This document shows, one piece after another, positions 3,856 through 12,132 of a stretch of 12,658 bases of DNA. Source of the DNA: a virus. Position numbers and translations under genes: made by a program. Positions within the stretch are counted from its first letter, which is position 1, and every line of letters begins with the position of its first letter. The notes below the pieces were generated by a model. That model made no database searches, was not told the origin of the DNA, and saw only the letters and a program-made list of their open reading frames with translations. The DNA is taken from UHGV virus genome UHGV-1796775. The stretch is one strand, 5' to 3'.

Positions 3856-4328
3856 ACCTCAATCTCTCTGACCGTTCCACCCGCTTCTTTGAATTTTGCA
3901 ATCAGGCTGTCAGCCTTATGCTCGAACTGACCATAACCAGCGCCAGGCAGTGAAGCCCAGATATTGCTGCAACGGTCGATAGCCTGACGAATATCACCGC
4001 GATCAATCATCGGCAAAGCGCCACGCTCCTTAATCTGCTGCAATGCAACAGCATCCTGGCTTTTAGGAGAGAAGTCTTTCAGGCCAAGCTGCTTACGATA
4101 GGCATCCCACCAACGGGAAAGAAGCTGGTAACGCCCGGCGGCTGTTGATTTGAGTTTTGGGTTTAGCGTGACAAGTTTGCGAGGGTGATCAGAGTAATCA
4201 GTGAATAGCTCTCCGCCTACAATGACGTCATAACCATGATTTCTGGTTTTCTGTCGTCCGTTATCAGTCCCCTCTGACCACGCCAGCATATCGAGGAACG
4301 CCTTACGTTGATTATTGATTTCCACCAT
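3852..4328 (-). CDS. R: Endolysin R (lambda-type lytic transglycosylase), 158 aa
   Basis: Translation [39 protein letters not shown]... matches lambda R from memory nearly residue for residue. Start overlaps the S 3' end. Confidence 0.93.
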
Positions 4329-4635
4329 CTTCTACTCCGGCTTTTTTAGCAGCGAAGCGTTTGATAAGCGAACCAATCGAGTCAGTACCGATGTAGCCGA
4401 TGAACACGCTCGTTATATAAGCGAGATTGCTACTTAGTCCGGCGAAGTCGAGAAGATCACGAATGAACCAGGCGATAATGGCGCACATCGTTGCGTCGAT
4501 TACTGTTTTTGTAAACGCACCGCCATTATATCTGCCGCGAAGGTACGCCATTGCAAACGCAAGGATTGCCCCGATGCCTTGTTCCTTTGCCGCAAGAATG
4601 GCGGCTAACAGGTCATGTTTTTCTGGCATCTTCAT
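4312..4635 (-). CDS. S: Holin S (class I; dual-start holin/antiholin), 107 aa
   Basis: Translation [39 protein letters not shown]... is essentially lambda S. The Met1-Lys2-Met3 dual start (ATG at 4635 and 4629) gives S107 antiholin and S105 holin. Confidence 0.93.
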
Positions 4636-5041
4636 GTCTTACCCCCAATAAGGGGATTTGCTCTATTTAATTAGGAATAAGGTCGATTACTGATCGAACA
4701 AATCCAGGCTACTGTGTTTAGTAATCAGATTTGTTCGTGACCGATATGCACGGGCAAAACGGCAGGAGGTTGTTAGCGCAGCCTCTTGCCATCCGCTTTC
4801 ACGAAGGTCATGTGTAGAAGGCCGCAGCGTAACTATTACTAATGAATTCAGAACAGACAGTGGCTACGGCTCAGTTTGGGTTGTGCTGTTGCTGGGCGGC
4901 GATGACGCCTGTACGCATTTGGTGATCCGGTTCTGCTTCCGGTATTCGCTTAATTCAGCACAACGGAAAGAGCACTGGCTAACCAGGCTCGCCGACTCTT
5001 CACGATTATCGACTCAATGCTCTTACCTGTTGTGCAGATAT

Positions 5042-5098
5042 AAAAAATCCCGAAACCGTTATGCAGGCTCTAACTATTACCTGCGAACTGTTTCGGGA
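5042..5098 (-). terminator. tR' late terminator
   Basis: Long hairpin with arms at 5048-5056 and 5090-5098 (UCCCGAAAC / GUUUCGGGA) followed on the minus-strand RNA by a U6 tract (plus-strand A-run 5042-5047). Confidence 0.7.
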
Positions 5099-5233
5099 TT
5101 GCATTTTGCAGACCTCTCTGCCTGCGATGGTTGGAGTTCCAGACGATACGTCGAAGTGACCAACTAGGCGGAATCGGTAGTAAGCGCCGCCTCTTTTCAT
5201 CTCACTACCACAACGAGCGAATTAACCCATCGT
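5042..5233 (-). ncRNA. Lambda-type 6S late leader RNA (pR' transcript terminated at tR')
   Basis: Minus-strand sequence from ACGATGGGTTAATTCGCTCG... to ...GCATAACGGTTTCGGGATTTTTTAT matches the lambda pR'-tR' transcript as I remember it. End coordinates are approximate. Confidence 0.7.
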
Positions 5234-5240
5234 TGAGTCA

Positions 5241-5269
5241 AATTTACCCAATTTTATTCAATAAGTCAA
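5241..5269 (-). promoter_or_regulatory. Late promoter pR' with overlapping Q-utilisation (qut) region
   Basis: On the minus strand, TTGACT (-35, plus 5264-5269), a 17-bp spacer, then TAAATT (-10, plus 5241-5246). The arrangement matches lambda pR' from memory; it lies just downstream of Q. Confidence 0.7.
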
Positions 5270-5311
5270 TATCATGCCGTTAATATGTTGCCATCCGTGG
5301 CAATCATGCTG

Positions 5312-5935
5312 CTAACGTGTGACCGCATTCAAAATGTTGTCTGCGATTGACTCTTCTTTGTGGCATTGCACCACCAGAGCGTCATACAGCGGCTTAACAG
5401 TGCGTGACCAGGTGGGTTGGGTAAGGTTTGGGATTAGCATCGTCACAGCGCGATATGCTGCGCTTGCTGGCATCCTTGAATAGCCGACGCCTTTGCATCT
5501 TCCGCACTCTTTCTCGACAACTCTCCCCCACAGCTCTGTTTTGGCAATATCAACCGCACGGCCTGTACCGTGGCAATCTCTGCATCTTGCCCCCGGCGTC
5601 GCGGCACTACGGCAATAATCCGCATAAGCGAATGTTGCGAGCACTTGCAGTACCTTTGCCTTAGTATTTCCTTCAAGCTTTGCCACACCACGGTATTTCC
5701 CCGATACCTTGTGTGCAAATTGCATCAGATAGTTGATAGCCTTTTGTTTGTCGTTCTGGCTGAGTTCGTGCTTACCGCAGAATGCAGCCATACCGAATCC
5801 GGCTTGTGATTGCGCCATCCCCATAGCAGCCATCACATCAGTACCGGAAAGAGAGTCAGAAGCCGTGGCCCGTGGTGAGTCGCTCATCATCGGGCTTTTT
5901 GGCGAATGAAATTTAGCTACGCTTTCGAGTCTCAT
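5312..5935 (-). CDS. Q: Late-gene antiterminator Q (lambda-type), 207 aa
   Basis: Translation [27 protein letters not shown]...[12 protein letters not shown]...CGRCKGVGY is lambda Q with its zinc-binding Cys cluster. ATG at 5935 overlaps the NinI stop (ATGA). Confidence 0.93.
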
Positions 5936-6597
5936 GCGCCTTCTCCCTGTACCTGAATCAATGTGAGGTTTCCGCAGAACACTGCGCCGGTATCGATATA
6001 CATCTGGTTGGCAAACTTGAGTGGTTTCACTGCTGGCGTATGACCAAAGATGAACGTGTCCGCGCCTTTGATTTCTTTCACGATCCCGTCTTGTGAGTTG
6101 CTGATTCGTTCGCGGTTCCAGATTACCTGCTGATGATCAACTGGCTTTCCAAACTCGTATTCGTCACAAGGATAATCGGCGTGGCAGATGACATATTTTT
6201 TTCCTTTACTCACCAGTTCGATGATTAACGGAAGTTCATCTGCTTTATGGGCAAGAGCTTTAGCCAGAATTTCTTTGTCGTAATCGAGATTAAAGAACCA
6301 GCCACCGCCATTAAGCAGCCAGTGATTGACGTTTCCACGCTCTGATAAGCCATCAATCATCATTTGCTCATGGTTTCCACGTACAGCTCTGAACCAGGGG
6401 AATGTGATTAATTCCAGACATTCGACGTTCTCTGTACCGCGATCAACCAAATCGCCCACCGAGATAAGCAGGTCTTTTTTGGTGTCGAATCCTATCGTCT
6501 CCAGTTTTTTCATCAGGTTCGTGTAGCATCCGTGCAGATCGCCAACTACCCAAATATTTCGGTATTTGCTGCCATCAATTTTTTCGTAATAGCGCAT
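5932..6597 (-). CDS. ninI: NinI serine/threonine protein phosphatase (lambda PPase-like), 221 aa
   Basis: Metallophosphatase motifs GDLHG, GDLVDRG and GNHE. I place the start at the internal ATG (6597, MRYYEKIDG...), as in lambda PPase; the ORF-track N-terminal extension overlaps NinH and is probably not translated. Confidence 0.88.
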
Positions 6598-6781
6598 CTC
6601 TTTCACTCCATCCGCGATGAACCATGAGAACGTCGTTGACGATGGCGTGCATTTTCCCGTCTTTATCATCAACGTATTTTCTGACCGTACCGCGACTACA
6701 TTTCAGTCTGCGTGCTACTTCTGTCTGGTTTCCGTATGCTTCAACGAGCATGTCTGGAATGGTTTTTACTGAGAACGTCAT
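6575..6781 (-). CDS. ninH: NinH (small Fis-like HTH protein), 68 aa
   Basis: 68-aa ORF with ATG at 6781 overlapping the NinG stop (ATGA). Sequence and size match lambda NinH from memory. Confidence 0.8.
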
Positions 6782-7389
6782 GCGGCCTCACTTCTGCTAT
6801 TTCGCAGGTCTTTGAGTTTCTGCTGATACTCCGCCTTGATGGCCCTGCACTCTTCGACAGTCCAGCGATGGCGGTTATGGTTTGATTCGATTTCGTCTAC
6901 TGCTTCCTGCCCGATGCGATTAATCAGTTCGACGCGATACGGAACGAGATTTCCGCTTTTGTGCTGGTTGCACACCACGCATTGCTTGTGAATATTGCGT
7001 TCATCAAATCGGAGTTGAGGTGCCGCAGCAGTTGTCCGGTAATGTCCGGCATCCCACTGAGCAGACGTGAGCGTTCCGCACGAGATACATGGTAAGTCGC
7101 GGTCTCTTTCTCTGATGAAGGCGTTTACGGCTTGTTGGGCTTGTTTAATCCAGTAACTGCGGGGCTTTAAGGCGAGTTTTCGAATCTTAAGTTTATCTTT
7201 CTGTCTCTGATCCTCTCGTCGTCGTTTCTTCTCTGCTGCTTTTTCCGCTTTTTCGCGTTCTTTACTTCGTCGTTCGAGTGCTATCTTGGTTCCACACTCT
7301 GGAGAGCACCACCACTGATTAGCGAATGCAGGGTGAAACCATTCCCGACATTCATCGTTTTTACATCGTCTTCGCGCTGGTTTAGCCAT
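6778..7389 (-). CDS. ninG: NinG / Rap recombination-associated endonuclease, 203 aa
   Basis: Cys-rich N- and C-terminal clusters ([23 protein letters not shown]) separated by a basic stretch, typical of NinG/Rap. ATG at 7389. Confidence 0.85.
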
Positions 7390-7552
7390 CGTCTTCTTCC
7401 TCGTACATTGAGCTATTCGGATCGCTCATCAGTTCTGCGCAGCAGTGCTCACACACGTGAACTTCCAGCACATGCAGCTTCTGGCCGCAGTTAGCGCACG
7501 TTAAAGCCCGCTCGACGCTTCCTTGTTCGTAACTTCGATTTTGGTCAATCAC
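7382..7552 (-). CDS. ninF: NinF-like small zinc-finger protein, 56 aa
   Basis: Not in the ORF track. Hand translation from a GTG at 7552 (GTGA overlap with the NinE stop; GAGGA upstream) gives [56 protein letters not shown]. Its stop overlaps the NinG start. Confidence 0.6.
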
Positions 7553-7731
7553 CTTGTTTTCCTCGCACGTTCTCTAAGCCACCGGATATCCCACAGGTGA
7601 GCCGTGTAGTTGAAGGTTTTTACGTCAGATTCTTTTGGGATTGGCTTGCGTTTATTTCTGGAGCGTTTCGTTGGAAGGTATTTGCAGTTTTCACAGATTA
7701 TGTCGGTGATGCTTCGTCGCTGTCGTCTCAT
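7549..7731 (-). CDS. ninE: NinE, 60 aa
   Basis: Internal ATG at 7731 ([23 protein letters not shown]...) overlaps the methyltransferase stop (ATGA). The ORF-track 90-aa version is an upstream extension into that gene. Confidence 0.75.
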
Positions 7732-8255
7732 GCCGCCCTCCTGACGCCCTGCCCGATCGCCATCAATGCCGCTTTGGATACGGTAGTAAACATCCGTCGA
7801 GGACTGATGAACGGTCGCCAAATCAGCAGCATGGAGCCTTTGCTGTTTCCCTTCTTCTCCAGCCCTGTCGATGGTTCGATAAAATTAATCCGTCCATCAG
7901 TGATAATACGAACTTCGTCAACACTCTCCAGAGCCTTGCTGAACCATCCGACAGACATATCCTCTGGCACAAGCATCACTACCGTCTGTCGTTGTTGTAT
8001 GCACTGCTCAGCGGCTTTTTCCACCCACGGCCTGATATTGCTGTACGGTGGGTTATTCCAGATTGCACCGTGGCTTATCCACTCAGAATTTAGCGCGTCG
8101 TCGGCCTCAGTTAGCCAGTGAGCGCACAGAGCATTTTTGTCGCTCGCTGCCGAATCCAGCCAGAATCCAAACTCAATATCCAGTGCATCAAAAAGCCAAA
8201 GCGGCGTTTGCCAGCAGTCCTTGTCGTGTGCTGGCGTATTTGATTTGATAGTCAT
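7728..8255 (-). CDS. Phage Dam-type DNA N6-adenine methyltransferase, 175 aa
   Basis: Catalytic NPPY motif ([10 protein letters not shown]) and the typical N-terminal [13 protein letters not shown] block of the phage Dam family. Preferred start is the ATG at 8255 (ATGA overlap with the NinB stop, GGAAGG Shine-Dalgarno); an alternative ATG at 8282 would add 9 residues. Confidence 0.8.
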
Positions 8256-8698
8256 GCAGCCTTCCCTTTTCGTTGTGACCATTCATACTCTCGCCGGGAG
8301 TCATCACTCCACCGCACGTTGCGCTCTGAGCCGAACCAGAACATGATTTCGATAAGCTCAGTCATGCTGGCCTTTCGCATTTTGCTGGTACGCACTCCAA
8401 GCATAACAACGCCACCGTCGATACCAGGCGCACTTCGTTGCTCCAGTTTTTTGGTCTTAAGCCACAGAGCAGTGAACAGATCTTTCCAGTCCTCCGGCGC
8501 AAGTCTCTGTCCATGCCAAAGCACCTGACGCGAAACATCGTTCAGCATCGGCCACATACGGTCATTCTGCGCTTTGCTCCGCTTGGGTTCTTTAATGTGG
8601 ACTTCGTGAGGTGACTTGTCGTCGATGGGAAGTGAGAGTATTGCGTCTATGGCGTTGTTTCTGATTGCTTCGTTGCGAAGCATGTATATTTGCTTCAT
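8252..8698 (-). CDS. ninB: NinB (Orf-family recombination mediator), 148 aa
   Basis: Homologous to lambda NinB from memory (e.g. LNDVSRQVLWHG, RNVRWSDD). ATG at 8698 with GAGGT upstream. Confidence 0.85.
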   Translation of the reverse strand: MKQIYMLRNEAIRNNAIDAILSLPIDDKSPHEVHIKEPKRSKAQNDRMWPMLNDVSRQVLWHGQRLAPEDWKDLFTALWLKTKKLEQRSAPGIDGGVVMLGVRTSKMRKASMTELIEIMFWFGSERNVRWSDDSRREYEWSQRKGKAA

Positions 8699-8720: not shown

Positions 8721-9047
8721 TCATTGATACCCTCTCTCACTTAATCGCCTCCACGCTTCGTTAAACTCCTCTCTGGTTGCGCCGGATTTTCTTTCTTCAA
8801 ACATCATGCATTCGCTGATGTCTCCCCATGACTTTGGTCGCTTTTCAGCGAACAGATCATCCCATTCGAATACCCAGCGGCCTGATTTTCGGTAGTGGTA
8901 AATGGTCAGCCATGTTGTGCTGTTCGCTGGATACCCATAGAGAACTTCGACTTTTTGATCACGGTCTTTATGCTTTTTCAGCAGGATAAAGCCAGCAACC
9001 AGTGAAGCTCCGGCAAGAATGATGATTGGAATTTGCCAGTCAGCCAC
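8721..9047 (-). CDS. Hypothetical membrane-anchored protein, 108 aa
   Basis: GTG start at 9047 with a strong GGAGGG Shine-Dalgarno 4 nt upstream. One N-terminal TM helix (IPIIILAGASLVAGFILL) followed by a basic stretch and a charged, Trp-rich soluble domain. No family recognised. Confidence 0.55.
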   Translation of the reverse strand: MADWQIPIIILAGASLVAGFILLKKHKDRDQKVEVLYGYPANSTTWLTIYHYRKSGRWVFEWDDLFAEKRPKSWGDISECMMFEERKSGATREEFNEAWRRLSERGYQ

Positions 9048-9059
9048 ACTTCCCTCCGC

Positions 9060-9266
9060 TTAACTCACAAAACTCCACGCCATTTTTGCTACGACAACAG
9101 GCATAACACCGATAATCACCCACAGGAGAATGCTACCGAAAAGCACACCCACCATGTCTTTACCTTCGCCTACCAACCGGACAAAACTGCTGGCAACCAC
9201 AATGAACGTCGCCACCATCCACATAGCACCGAGAATCCTCAATGCAGAGAAAATTAACTCAACCAC
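9060..9266 (-). CDS. Hypothetical small integral membrane protein, 68 aa (two predicted TM helices)
   Basis: GTG start at 9266 with GGGGGAGAG upstream. Two hydrophobic segments separated by a GEGKD turn. Its stop abuts the RBS of the next ORF. No family recognised. Confidence 0.5.
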   Translation of the reverse strand: MVELIFSALRILGAMWMVATFIVVASSFVRLVGEGKDMVGVLFGSILLWVIIGVMPVVVAKMAWSFVS

Positions 9267-9280
9267 GATTTACTCTCCCC

Positions 9281-9313
9281 CAAATAAAAAGGCCTGCGAT
9301 TACCAGCAGGCCT
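9281..9313 (-). terminator. Intrinsic terminator downstream of the helicase gene (tR2-like position)
   Basis: Perfect 8-bp GC-rich inverted repeat AGGCCTGC / GCAGGCCT (plus 9290-9297 and 9306-9313) with an 8-nt loop, followed on the minus-strand RNA by UUUUUAUUU. Confidence 0.7.
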
Positions 9314-9341
9314 GCTATCAGCTCAGTGATGTAGATGGTCA

Positions 9342-10778
9342 TCAGAATCCTCCTTTCTTCTTGGACTGCGGTTCCTCGCGTTCACGGCGGCGCATTTCAG
9401 CAGACTGTTGGTCTGTGTCATAAATAGCGCCATTTGCCTGAATGCAATACACCGTGCCGGTATTGCCATGACGATTGAGACGAAGGATTAGTTCAGTTTC
9501 ACCAGGTGGAACACTGTCATCAAAAGCGCCTTCACGATGGATCCCCACCCAATAATCGCAATCCTGTTCAATCTGCCCTGTATCTCGTGAGTCACTTGGT
9601 AATGGGCGTTTATTGGTTCGGCTTTCCAGTGCGCGGTTAAGCTGCGTCAGAAGCACAACAACGCAATCAAGCTCTTTGGCAAGGTTCTTCAGTCCTTTGG
9701 TGATCATGCCGTAGGCAAGGTCGTTGCGATCGGCCTTCTCAGCGGTCATTAGTGTCAGGTAATCGACCAGAATCATGCCAACACATCCTTTTTCTCGCTT
9801 GATTCGACGGCTTTCGCTGACGATTTGAGCCAGAGATAATCCCGGCGTGTCGTCGATGTAAAGCAGGTCGATTTCACTCAAGCGATTGGCTGTTTCGATC
9901 GCCCTGTTGAAGTCACCATCGTAATCACCCTGATAGCCGTCATCAGCGTCATTTGTCGCCGGAAGGTAAAAAATATTCGGGTTAACACCTGACTTCTGTC
10001 CTACCAGTTTTTCCAGTATCTGGTCACCGGGCATTTCAAGGCTGAACATCAGAGCAGGCTTTTTCTCATGCACTGCGCAGTTGATTGCCATCTGGCTGTA
10101 TAGTGTCGTTTTCCCCATCTTAGGGCGAGCGCCAATGACAAACAGAGAGCCTTTCACCAGACCTTTCGGTGACAGCATCCTGTCCAGCGATGGGATCCCT
10201 GTGCTCATTCCTCGCTGTTCGCCTGACGGGTCAAATCGCTTCTCAAGGTCGCTAACCCAGTCTTCCATGACCTCACCAAATGAGCGAAGGCCGCGACGCG
10301 ATCCGGTTTTTGCATGGTCTGTCAGTTGCGTGAAAATCGCCTGAATAGCTTCGTACTTCTGCGTTGCAGTCATTCCGTTGCGGGAATAGAGCAATTCCGT
10401 CGCTTCAGTCATGCGGTTGATGGCGTAGCGTTCCATTGCGGTTTCACGAACCTGCATTGCATAGGCAACGATGTTTGCGGCGCTTGGCGTGTTCTTTGCG
10501 ATCTCAGCGATATAAGCAAAACCGCCAACAGACGCCGTTAACGATTTACGCTCCAGTTCATCGAAAAGCGTCAGGCCATCTACTGGCTTTTGCTCCCGGT
10601 GCATTCTGGTTATTTCTTCGAAAAGGATTTTGTGTGGTCGGCTGTAAAATGAATCAGGCTTCAGCATCGCCAGAACTTTCTGGACGCGCTCACTGCTGTC
10701 ATCATCCAGAAGCAATCCACCAATCACCGCCTGCTCTGCCTCGATGCTATGGGGCGGCGCATAAAAATTATCGGTCAT
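9342..10778 (-). CDS. DnaB-family replicative DNA helicase, 478 aa
   Basis: Walker A GARPKMGKTT and conserved DnaB C-terminal domain blocks (LVDYLTLM, TGQIEQDCDY). ATG at 10778 with GAGGGTGA upstream (the ORF-track start at 10793 is a GTG). Overlaps the initiator gene end by 11 nt. Confidence 0.9.
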   Translation of the reverse strand: MTDNFYAPPHSIEAEQAVIGGLLLDDDSSERVQKVLAMLKPDSFYSRPHKILFEEITRMHREQKPVDGLTLFDELERKSLTASVGGFAYIAEIAKNTPSAANIVAYAMQVRETAMERYAINRMTEATELLYSRNGMTATQKYEAIQAIFTQLTDHAKTGSRRGLRSFGEVMEDWVSDLEKRFDPSGEQRGMSTGIPSLDRMLSPKGLVKGSLFVIGARPKMGKTTLYSQMAINCAVHEKKPALMFSLEMPGDQILEKLVGQKSGVNPNIFYLPATNDADDGYQGDYDGDFNRAIETANRLSEIDLLYIDDTPGLSLAQIVSESRRIKREKGCVGMILVDYLTLMTAEKADRNDLAYGMITKGLKNLAKELDCVVVLLTQLNRALESRTNKRPLPSDSRDTGQIEQDCDYWVGIHREGAFDDSVPPGETELILRLNRHGNTGTVYCIQANGAIYDTDQQSAEMRRREREEPQSKKKGGF

Positions 10779-11667: not shown

Positions 11668-11806
11668 GACCTTTCTCCTTCTGCATCAGCTTCACCTTTT
11701 CCAACTCAGCCCGGAATCGACCAGGCTGCTTGAAGCTGGACAGGAAGCGATCACGTAGTATGTGTTTGTGAATTTTGTCCTGGTAAGGACTGAGTTGTTT
11801 TGTCAT
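11660..11806 (-). CDS. Small hypothetical protein, 48 aa, between cII and the initiator
   Basis: Not in the ORF track. ATG at 11806 with AGGAG 5 nt upstream; translation [48 protein letters not shown]. Its TAA stop overlaps the initiator ATG. The start context GGAGTCATTATGACAAA is the one I recall for lambda O. Confidence 0.5.
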
Positions 11807-11818
11807 AATGACTCCTGT

Positions 11819-11895
11819 GGATTGATCCAGTAATGACCTCAGAACTCCATCTGGATTTGATCAGAACGCTCGGTTGCCGCCGGGCGTTTTTTATT
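11819..11895 (+). ncRNA. oop: oop antisense RNA (lambda-type), overlapping the cII 3' end
   Basis: Plus-strand GATTGATCCAGTAATGACCTCAGAACTCCATCTGGATTTGATCAGAACGCTCGGTTGCCGCCGGGCGTTTTTTATT matches lambda oop from memory. Terminator hairpin CGCTCGG/CCGGGCG at 11867-11886 plus a T6 tract; CATAAT -10 at 11804-11809. The 5' end is approximate. Confidence 0.7.
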
Positions 11896-12132
11896 GGTGA
11901 GAATCGAAGCAACTTGTCGTGCCAATCGAGCCATATCGTCGTCAACGACGCCCCATTCAAGAACAGCAAGCAGCATTGAGAACTTTGGAATCCAGTCCCT
12001 CTTCCACCTGCTGATCTGCGACTTATCAACTCCCACAGCTTCCGCTGTCTTCTCAGTTCCAAGCATTGCGATTTTGTTAAGCAACGCACTCTCGATTCGT
12101 AGAGCCTCGTTGCGTTTGTTTGCACGAACCAT
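11839..12132 (-). CDS. cII: Transcriptional activator CII (lambda-type), 97 aa
   Basis: Internal ATG at 12132 gives [66 protein letters not shown]..., lambda CII nearly residue for residue. The ORF-track N-terminal extension runs into nutR and is not translated. Confidence 0.93.

What the first reader, a model, noticed from the sequence alone, without database searches (positions are those of the whole stretch)
7728..8255. Dam-type N6-adenine methyltransferase embedded in the nin region and translationally coupled to ninB and ninE
The NPPY-motif methyltransferase sits in the slot lambda uses for ninC/ninD, with ATGA start-stop overlaps on both sides. A phage-borne orphan methylase may protect incoming DNA from host restriction or alter host gene expression in the lysogen.
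Basis: partly seen in the sequence, partly recalled or inferred. Interest (0 to 1): 0.4.

Follow-up and report, generated by a model that had tools for sequence, protein, structure and literature searches.

The report
Known phage GATC adenine methylase gene
This is the well-known small adenine methyltransferase gene that Shiga-toxin phages and many other lambda-like phages carry between ninB and ninE; it is real and intact, but ordinary and already annotated in about 29% of complete E. coli genomes.

Summary
Window 7728..8255 (minus strand) is an intact 175-aa ORF. Its ATG overlaps the ninB stop (ATGA, 8252-8255) and its TGA overlaps the ninE start (ATGA, 7728-7731). It matches Pfam PF05869 "Dam" (E 8e-65) and NCBIfam TIGR01712 "phage N-6-adenine-methyltransferase" (264 bits, cut-off 97) over their full length, and it keeps the invariant NPPY motif.

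It is 174/175 identical to the dam product of phage VT2-Sakai (M.EcoVT2Dam), which the literature reports as GATC-specific. The same ninB-dam-ninE block, with the same 4-base overlaps, has been annotated since about 2000. It occurs in 415 phage records and in 1566 of 5426 complete E. coli genomes.

Three caveats:
- It is "Dam" by target only. It does not belong to the host Dam family, and its model looks most like gamma-class m6A methyltransferases.
- ATGA overlaps are a generic feature of nin regions, and actual translational coupling was not shown.
- The gene lies behind a tR2-like terminator in the early-right operon, and an identical gene in phage Phi24B is expressed with the lytic cycle. 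A role in the lysogen is therefore less likely than methylation of replicating phage DNA.

Already known; low interest.

The parts
7728..8255 (-). dam: 175-aa phage N6-adenine DNA methyltransferase (PF05869 / TIGR01712), 174/175 identical to VT2-Sakai Dam (M.EcoVT2Dam)
8043..8054 (-). Codons AAC CCA CCG TAC = NPPY (residues 68-71), the catalytic motif IV. N68 and P70 are invariant and P69 and Y71 are at least 90% conserved across relatives at 32-66% identity.
   Evidence: sequence; alignments
8154..8156 (-). Codon for D34 in the L-D-x-A-A segment. It is invariant across the family and is inferred to be the AdoMet-binding (motif I) acidic residue. The invariant T17 and near-invariant P18 (the W-x-T-P segment) lie upstream of it.
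   Evidence: the role is inferred from the motif order of amino-methyltransferases
8252..8698 (-). ninB (Orf-family recombination mediator), 148 aa. Its TGA overlaps the dam ATG.
8252..8255 (-). ATGA overlap: ninB stop / dam start
8260..8266 (-). GGGAAGG, a weak Shine-Dalgarno-like purine run 4 nt upstream of the dam ATG, inside the end of ninB
   Evidence: sequence; function inferred
7549..7731 (-). ninE, 60 aa. Its ATG overlaps the dam TGA. The 98% DNA homology to lambda begins at 7724, 7 nt inside this gene.
7728..7731 (-). ATGA overlap: dam stop / ninE start. It coincides with the mosaic junction to lambda-like DNA.
7737..7742 (-). AGGAGG Shine-Dalgarno sequence for ninE, 5 nt upstream of its ATG, inside the end of dam
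   Evidence: sequence
9290..9313 (-). Intrinsic-terminator-like hairpin followed by a T run, just after the helicase gene. It lies in a segment 95.8% identical to the lambda ren-ninB intergenic DNA (lambda 40566-40636). It probably corresponds to tR2, which would make the nin genes, dam included, dependent on antitermination.
   Evidence: the assignment to tR2 is from memory

Best explanation
The gene encodes a small, single-domain, orphan DNA N6-adenine methyltransferase of the phage family PF05869/TIGR01712. It is essentially the same protein as M.EcoVT2Dam of the Stx2 phage VT2-Sakai, which transfers a methyl group from S-adenosylmethionine to the adenine of GATC.

Shown here: family membership, intact conserved motifs, near-identity to M.EcoVT2Dam, the position, and the overlaps.

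Taken from the literature: GATC specificity, and lytic-cycle-linked expression of the identical Phi24B gene.

Inferred:
- The gene is transcribed as part of the early-right (pR) operon after N-type antitermination through a tR2-like terminator. It would then be made during lytic growth together with ninB and ninE, with ribosomes passing from one gene to the next across the ATGA junctions.
- Its most likely job is to top up GATC methylation on rapidly replicating phage DNA, which host Dam alone leaves under-methylated. Packaged genomes would then be fully modified and resist GATC-cutting, methylation-sensitive restriction enzymes in the next host, including hosts that lack Dam.

My confidence is about 0.85 for identity and GATC activity, and about 0.45 for this biological role.
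For: - Family: full-length matches to PF05869 (E 8.3e-65), TIGR01712 equivalog (264 bits against a cut-off of 97) and phrog_111 DNA methyltransferase.
- Near-identity: 174/175 identical to VT2-Sakai Dam BAA94133.1. The only change is I60V, at a variable column.
- Specificity: M.EcoVT2Dam is reported to target GATC (PMC6602927, citing Radlinska & Bujnicki 2001, PMID 11720311). It is listed among phage Dam enzymes in PMC7556043.
- Motifs: across 35 family members at 32-66% identity, all invariant columns (T17, D34, N68, P70, W104, R122, F125) and all near-invariant columns (W15, P18, A37, P69, Y71, L95, N137, S141) are present in the window protein.
- Orphan status: the neighbours are NinB and NinE, and no nuclease is adjacent.
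- Expression: a terminator-like hairpin at 9313..9290 lies in DNA homologous to the lambda ren-ninB intergenic region. The Phi24B dam gene, a 528-nt gene whose product that paper lists as 100% identical to VT2-Sakai Dam, was among the CMAT genes with lytic-cycle-linked expression (PMC3342100).
- Role: virion DNA of P22 and lambda is under-methylated at Dam sites, "possibly because replication outstrips modification" (PMC8022706).
- The gene is retained intact in 1540 or more complete E. coli genomes and 415 phage records.
Against: - No activity was measured here.
- The primary paper on M.EcoVT2Dam could not be read.
- E. coli hosts already have Dam, so the benefit of a second GATC methylase is not obvious. 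[quoted passage not shown]
- GATC methylation makes DNA sensitive to DpnI-type methyl-dependent nucleases.
- The structure model is poor in exactly the cofactor and catalytic loops (pLDDT below 50 at residues 33-47 and 68-70), so the structure adds little about the mechanism.
- The PMC3342100 discussion entertains a role in lysogens.
Confidence: 0.85

Rival explanations
1. Epigenetic regulator in the lysogen. The prophage enzyme is made in uninduced cells and changes host or prophage gene expression, or helps keep lysogeny stable, by methylating GATC sites.
For: A small phage methyltransferase of Staphylococcus aureus, PamA, is 141 aa with NPPY at residues 64-67. It methylates GATC and alters host virulence-gene expression (bioRxiv 10.1101/2024.04.17.589803; PMC13076061). 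Host Dam is reported to be required for stable lysogeny of 933W, and the authors of PMC3342100 speculate that the phage enzyme supplements it. The protein was detected immunologically in lysogen cultures.
Against: The gene has no convincing promoter of its own. The scan found fewer promoter-like sites than the shuffled controls (6 against a mean of 7.9), and the ones near the gene match only 9 of 12 positions. The gene lies after a tR2-like terminator in the repressor-controlled operon. In Phi24B, expression followed the lytic pattern, so detection in lysogen cultures is attributed to spontaneously induced cells. E. coli GATC sites are already 99.9% methylated with or without extra phage copies. 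S. aureus, in contrast, gains GATC methylation (DpnI sensitivity) only with pamA; that it lacks a Dam of its own is my recollection.
Confidence: 0.08
2. Shield against mismatch repair. By rapidly converting hemimethylated GATC to the fully methylated form on replicating and recombining phage DNA, the enzyme blocks MutH nicking. That would favour the recombination between diverged phages promoted by NinB/Orf and Rap (NinG).
For: The gene is co-transcribed with, and overlaps, the recombination mediator ninB. NinG lies downstream. ninB and dam share composition (GC 0.51, GC3 0.57) and form one mosaic block that ends exactly at the ninE start. That MutH acts only at hemimethylated GATC is established knowledge, not tested here.
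Against: The linkage to NinB is not conserved. Relatives at 66-80% identity sit next to NinF, RusA or unknown genes, and the Yersinia relative sits in the left-operon region near int. There is no experimental support.
Confidence: 0.12
3. Broader or different specificity. Because the protein has no separate target-recognition domain, it might methylate adenines in relaxed contexts, or in single-stranded DNA, rather than strictly at GATC.
For: The protein is only 175 aa and has no extra domain. Non-specific phage adenine methyltransferases do exist (PMC3299994; PMC7556043).
Against: Those non-specific enzymes carry DPPY and FxGxG motifs and a region of about 90 residues corresponding to a target-recognition domain. 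This protein has NPPY and no such domain, and I do not count them as relatives; their sequences were not compared here. The 99%-identical M.EcoVT2Dam is reported as GATC-specific. SMRT data for a strain with two copies showed no unexplained m6A motif, although the gene may be silent in lysogens.
Confidence: 0.04
4. Inert passenger. The ORF is conserved only by hitch-hiking inside a frequently exchanged nin block and confers no benefit.
For: nin genes are non-essential (PMC8022706). The function of phage Dam enzymes is unsettled.
Against: The family has 8734 cluster representatives at E <= 0.001, with strictly conserved catalytic residues. The reading frame is intact across 1540 or more E. coli genomes. 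Both argue for purifying selection on activity.
Confidence: 0.03

Closest known systems
M.EcoVT2Dam (dam, H0105, BAA94133.1) of phage VT2-Sakai, and the equivalent genes of 933W (L0094), Phi24B, HK97 and mEp213
   Same: 174/175 residues are identical and the length is the same. The ninB-dam-ninE order and the 4-base overlaps on both sides are the same. It is reported to be GATC-specific.
   Different: One conservative change, I60V, at a variable position. Here the block sits in an IME10/Sf6-like P22-type phage backbone rather than in an Stx phage.
Phage Dam family PF05869 / TIGR01712 (the VT2-Sakai annotation names HP1 Orf13 and T1 M.T1 as similar proteins)
   Same: Full-length profile matches. 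The family-invariant T17, D34, N68/P70 (NPPY), W104, R122 and F125 are all present.
   Different: None found. This is a typical member.
Host Dam of E. coli and T4 Dam (alpha-class, Pfam MethyltransfD12)
   Same: Same reaction and, according to the literature, the same GATC target. Same general SAM-methyltransferase fold.
Lambda ninC-ninD interval
   Same: Same slot: directly after ninB, with a 4-base overlap, and directly before ninE.
   Different: Lambda has a PAPS-reductase-like NinC and a NinD there instead. The DNA homology to lambda starts only at ninE.
PamA, the prophage GATC methyltransferase of S. aureus mPhi11
   Same: A small orphan phage enzyme with NPPY at a similar position (residues 64-67 of 141) and GATC methylation.
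   Different: By my recollection its host has no Dam of its own, which would explain why the enzyme has regulatory consequences.

Membership tests
Phage N6-adenine methyltransferase (PF05869 Dam / TIGR01712 phage_N6A_met) | Full-length profile match above the curated cut-off | tested here: met
   PF05869: 218 bits against a cut-off of 28.1, profile positions 1-167 of 169. TIGR01712 equivalog: 264.2 bits against 97.05, positions 1-165 of 165.
Phage N6-adenine methyltransferase (PF05869 / TIGR01712) | Catalytic motif IV (N/D)PP(Y/F) intact | tested here: met
   NPPY at residues 68-71 (nt 8043-8054). N68 and P70 are invariant and P69 and Y71 are at least 90% conserved in 35 relatives at 32-66% identity.
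Phage N6-adenine methyltransferase (PF05869 / TIGR01712) | Other family-invariant residues retained (T17 with near-invariant P18, D34 with near-invariant A37, W104, R122, F125) | tested here: met
   All are present in the window protein. Their roles, such as AdoMet binding by D34, are inferred and not shown.
Phage N6-adenine methyltransferase (PF05869 / TIGR01712) | Class I SAM-dependent methyltransferase fold | tested here: inconclusive
GATC-specific (Dam-like) methyltransferases, defined by function | Methylates the adenine of GATC | not testable with these tools
   This rests on 99% identity to M.EcoVT2Dam and on the literature statement that it targets GATC (PMC6602927). The primary paper, PMID 11720311, is not held.
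Host-type Dam (E. coli Dam / T4 Dam, alpha class) | Sequence-family match and a separate DNA-recognition domain | tested here: not met
Orphan methyltransferase | No cognate restriction endonuclease adjacent | tested here: met
   The neighbours are NinB, NinE, NinF, NinG and NinH. The same holds in annotated relatives.
Lambdoid nin-region gene | Lies between the replication genes/tR2 and Q, in the tightly packed early-right operon | tested here: met
   The order on the minus strand is helicase, tR2-like hairpin, two small ORFs, ninB, dam, ninE, ninF, ninG, ninH, ninI, Q. Lambda is given for comparison.
Translationally coupled gene pair | Stop of the upstream gene overlaps the start of the downstream gene | tested here: met
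   ATGA at 8252-8255 and at 7728-7731.
Translationally coupled gene pair | Downstream translation depends on upstream translation | not testable with these tools
   This needs nonsense-polarity or reporter experiments. Both downstream genes also have their own Shine-Dalgarno-like sequences, so independent initiation is possible.

The most novel reading that the evidence does not exclude
The most novel reading not excluded is that ninB and dam work as a functional pair, because here they form one mosaic block and are read through an ATGA overlap. The methylase would rapidly fully methylate GATC sites on recombination intermediates loaded by NinB/Orf. That would blind MutH-directed mismatch repair and so promote the recombination between diverged phages that generates lambdoid mosaicism.
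Probability: 0.06. Interest if true: 0.4.

Novelty: already known. Interest (0 to 1): 0.07.

Why it matters
It matters little as a discovery. The gene, its position and its overlaps have been annotated in Stx phages since about 2000, a near-identical protein has been cloned and assigned GATC specificity, and NCBI's pipeline names it automatically. The one open point is general and not specific to this window: why phages of Dam-proficient hosts carry a second, unrelated GATC methylase. The literature calls its role in the phage life cycle "still not well understood". This locus could serve as a test case, because the gene sits in a non-essential region and is easy to delete.

Tried and rejected
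- Upstream ATG at 8282 (184 aa) as the start. Rejected because the profile matches, the homolog N-termini and the public annotations all support 8255.
- Kinship with the non-specific adenine methyltransferases Hia5, Hin1523 and Nma1821. Rejected on motifs: those carry DPPY and FxGxG motifs and a region of about 90 residues corresponding to a target-recognition domain, which this protein lacks. Their sequences were not compared here.
- Sequence search of the PDB. Only chance-level hits (E 0.18 and 0.72), so the family has no solved relative detectable by sequence.
- Rfam and tRNA scans of the window found nothing.
- The two primary papers are not held: Murphy et al. 2008 and Radlinska & Bujnicki 2001. 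GATC specificity is therefore cited second-hand.
- A dedicated promoter for dam. The promoter scan found fewer sites than shuffled controls (6 against 7.9), and only weak 9-of-12 matches near the gene.
- A conserved NinB-Dam linkage. Not supported outside E. coli and Salmonella phages.

Full report
**1. The observation**

The window carries a minus-strand ORF that ends at 7728, with in-frame ATGs at 8282 and 8255.

The 8255 start is the right one:
- The PF05869 and TIGR01712 profiles align from residues 2-4.
- All 22 homologs in alignment A1 begin within a few residues of it.
- Both GenBank (VT2-Sakai) and RefSeq (E. coli A28) annotate 528-nt genes.

The junctions, read directly from the sequence, are as described:
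- ninB/dam is GGGAAGGCTGC-ATGA. The overlap is at 8252-8255.
- dam/ninE is AGGAGGGCGGC-ATGA. The overlap is at 7728-7731, and a canonical AGGAGG lies 5 nt before the ninE ATG.

The neighbours are NinB (PF05772, E 3e-48) and NinE (PF05322, E 3e-43). NinF, NinG, NinH, a NinI-type phosphatase and Q follow. In lambda the interval between ninB and ninE holds ninC and ninD, so the "slot" statement is correct.

**2. What the gene is**

The protein matches three libraries over its full length:
- Pfam PF05869 "DNA N-6-adenine-methyltransferase (Dam)", E 8.3e-65.
- The NCBIfam equivalog TIGR01712 "phage N-6-adenine-methyltransferase", 264 bits against a cut-off of 97.
- phrog_111, DNA methyltransferase.

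It is 174/175 identical to the dam product of phage VT2-Sakai (BAA94133.1). The single change is I60V, at a column that varies freely among homologs.

In VT2-Sakai the annotated gene order is ninB homolog, dam, ninE, with the same 4-base overlaps. The record's own note points to 933W L0094, HP1 Orf13 and T1 M.T1 as relatives.

The gene is very common:
- The 1.35-kb block matches 415 phage records at 80-99% identity. These are Stx1 and Stx2 phages, mEp213, Salmonella phages and others.
- The gene itself is present in 1566 of 5426 complete E. coli genomes. In the rows listed it is annotated "phage N-6-adenine-methyltransferase", with NinB and NinE on either side.
- The family as a whole has 8734 cluster representatives at E <= 0.001.

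**3. Is the catalytic apparatus intact?**

I aligned 35 family members at 32-66% identity to the window protein.
- The invariant columns are T17, D34, N68, P70, W104, R122 and F125.
- The near-invariant columns are W15, P18, A37, P69, Y71, L95, N137 and S141.

The window protein has all of them.

The linear order is W-x-T-P, then L-D-x-A-A, then N-P-P-Y, and no further domain follows.

The protein is therefore "Dam" by target and not by descent. It is a separate, minimal family whose layout resembles gamma-class enzymes. That class assignment is tentative, because the model is weakest in the N-terminal half.

**4. Specificity and expression, from the literature**

- PMC6602927 states that M.EcoVT2Dam "is known to target 5'-GATC-3'" and cites Radlinska & Bujnicki 2001 (PMID 11720311). 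I could not read the primary paper.
- PMC7556043 lists VT-2 among phages with Dam-like enzymes. [quoted passage not shown]
- PMC3342100 detected the Phi24B dam gene product, which it lists as 100% identical to VT2-Sakai Dam, in lysogen cultures. By qPCR, four of the five tested CMAT genes had expression linked to the lytic cycle. The one exception was CM18 and not dam (CM2).

**5. Context in this window**

All genes run on the minus strand. The order is cII end, O-like gene, DnaB-type helicase, two small ORFs, ninB, dam, ninE-ninI, Q, lysis cassette, small and large terminase. Overall the window is closest to phage IME10 and to Sf6.

A comparison with lambda gives three matches:
- 98.3% identity from window 7724 down to at least 4321, which is lambda 42097-45500, the end of the fetched lambda stretch. 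This homology starts 7 nt inside ninE, so the mosaic junction coincides with the dam/ninE ATGA.
- 95.8% identity of window 9343..9273 to lambda 40566-40636, the ren-ninB intergenic DNA. This segment contains a strong terminator-like hairpin with a T run at 9313..9290. From memory, this is the tR2 position.
- 96% identity of window 11992..11799 to the end of cII.

ninB and dam have no lambda DNA match, and they share composition (GC 0.51, GC3 0.57).

No convincing promoter lies in front of dam. The gene should therefore be expressed only from pR after antitermination, during lytic growth or induction. This is an inference, and it is consistent with the Phi24B data.

**6. The overlaps**

ATGA or GTGA overlaps also join ninE/ninF, ninG/ninH and ninI/Q in this window. 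ninF and ninG overlap by 8 nt. Lambda shows the same pattern.

PMC8022706 describes this as a property of all lambdoid nin regions, citing Kroger & Hobom 1982 and Cheng et al. 1995.

More distant dam homologs also overlap their neighbours by 1-4 nt, although those neighbours differ:
- Pectobacterium: NinF downstream.
- Edwardsiella: RusA downstream.
- Providencia: unknown genes on both sides.
- Yersinia: the gene lies in a left-operon position near int.

The overlaps are therefore real but generic. Actual coupling is untested, and adjacency to NinB is not a conserved feature of the family.

**7. The most likely mechanism**

The enzyme is made with the delayed-early genes and methylates GATC adenines on replicating phage DNA. 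Virion DNA of lambda and P22, which lack this gene, is under-methylated at Dam sites, "possibly because replication outstrips modification" (PMC8022706).

A phage-borne enzyme would close that gap. It would also supply GATC methylation in Dam-deficient hosts. Incoming genomes would then be protected from restriction enzymes that cut unmethylated GATC.

I rate it the most likely role, at about 0.45.

The second suggestion, altering host expression in the lysogen, is disfavoured for three reasons:
- the operon position;
- the lytic expression pattern;
- E. coli GATC sites are already 99.9% methylated.

That second role has a precedent in the S. aureus prophage enzyme PamA; by my recollection S. 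aureus has no Dam of its own.

A role in evading MutH-directed mismatch repair during recombination is possible but unsupported.

**8. Verdict**

The finding is accurate, and the thing it describes is already known and routinely annotated. The novelty rating is "already known" and the interest is low.

Noticed in passing
window 7724-7731 (and 4321-7724): DNA homology to lambda (98.3% over 3404 nt, covering ninE through the start of the lysis genes) begins 7 nt inside ninE. The mosaic junction between the VT2/933W-type ninB-dam block and lambda-type DNA therefore falls exactly on the dam/ninE ATGA overlap.
   Followed up: partly
window 9273-9343, hairpin 9290-9313 (-): A strong terminator-like hairpin (8-bp stem with 6 G-C pairs, then TTTTATTT) lies directly after the helicase gene. 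It sits in a segment 95.8% identical to lambda 40566-40636, the ren-ninB intergenic region. It is probably the tR2 equivalent; that assignment is from memory.
   Followed up: partly
window 11799-11992, hairpin 11863-11890 (+): The best terminator-like site in the scan (12-bp stem followed by a T run) is on the strand opposite to the genes. It lies inside a segment 96% identical to the lambda cII 3' end. That placement fits the oop antisense RNA terminator (from memory). Rfam returned no match.
   Followed up: no
whole window: GATC is depleted: 36 sites against 58.5 +/- 6.2 in dinucleotide-preserving shuffles, and all 200 shuffles had at least 36. The Markov expectation is 74. Only one GATC lies inside dam (7755). 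The literature notes GATC-poor regions in prophages (PMC6602927).
   Followed up: partly
window 8721-9047 (-) and 9060-9266 (-): Two small ORFs lie between the tR2-like terminator and ninB. One is 108 aa, with a full-length match to phrog_5903 (unknown function) and no Pfam hit. The other is a hydrophobic 68-aa ORF. The function of both is unknown.
   Followed up: no
database proteins P0001, P0013, P0116: Public assemblies contain fused ORFs: Dam+NinE (233 aa, a cluster of 41 member sequences) and NinB+Dam. These presumably arise from mutations or sequencing errors at the ATGA junctions, and they are indirect evidence of how tight the junctions are.
   Followed up: no
L005-L008 (Yersinia), L009-L013 (Pectobacterium, Providencia, Edwardsiella): Relatives at 66-80% identity occupy different non-essential early-region slots. 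In Yersinia the gene is beside xis/int-side genes. In Pectobacterium it is before NinF and NinG. In Edwardsiella it is before RusA. In most cases the gene still overlaps its neighbours by 1-4 nt. It behaves as a mobile single-gene cassette.
   Followed up: partly
representatives P0139, P0140, P0144, P0147, P0241: Some family members are 500-690 aa long, with the Dam-like domain at the C-terminus (about 46-51% identity). These are fusions to unidentified N-terminal domains.
   Followed up: no
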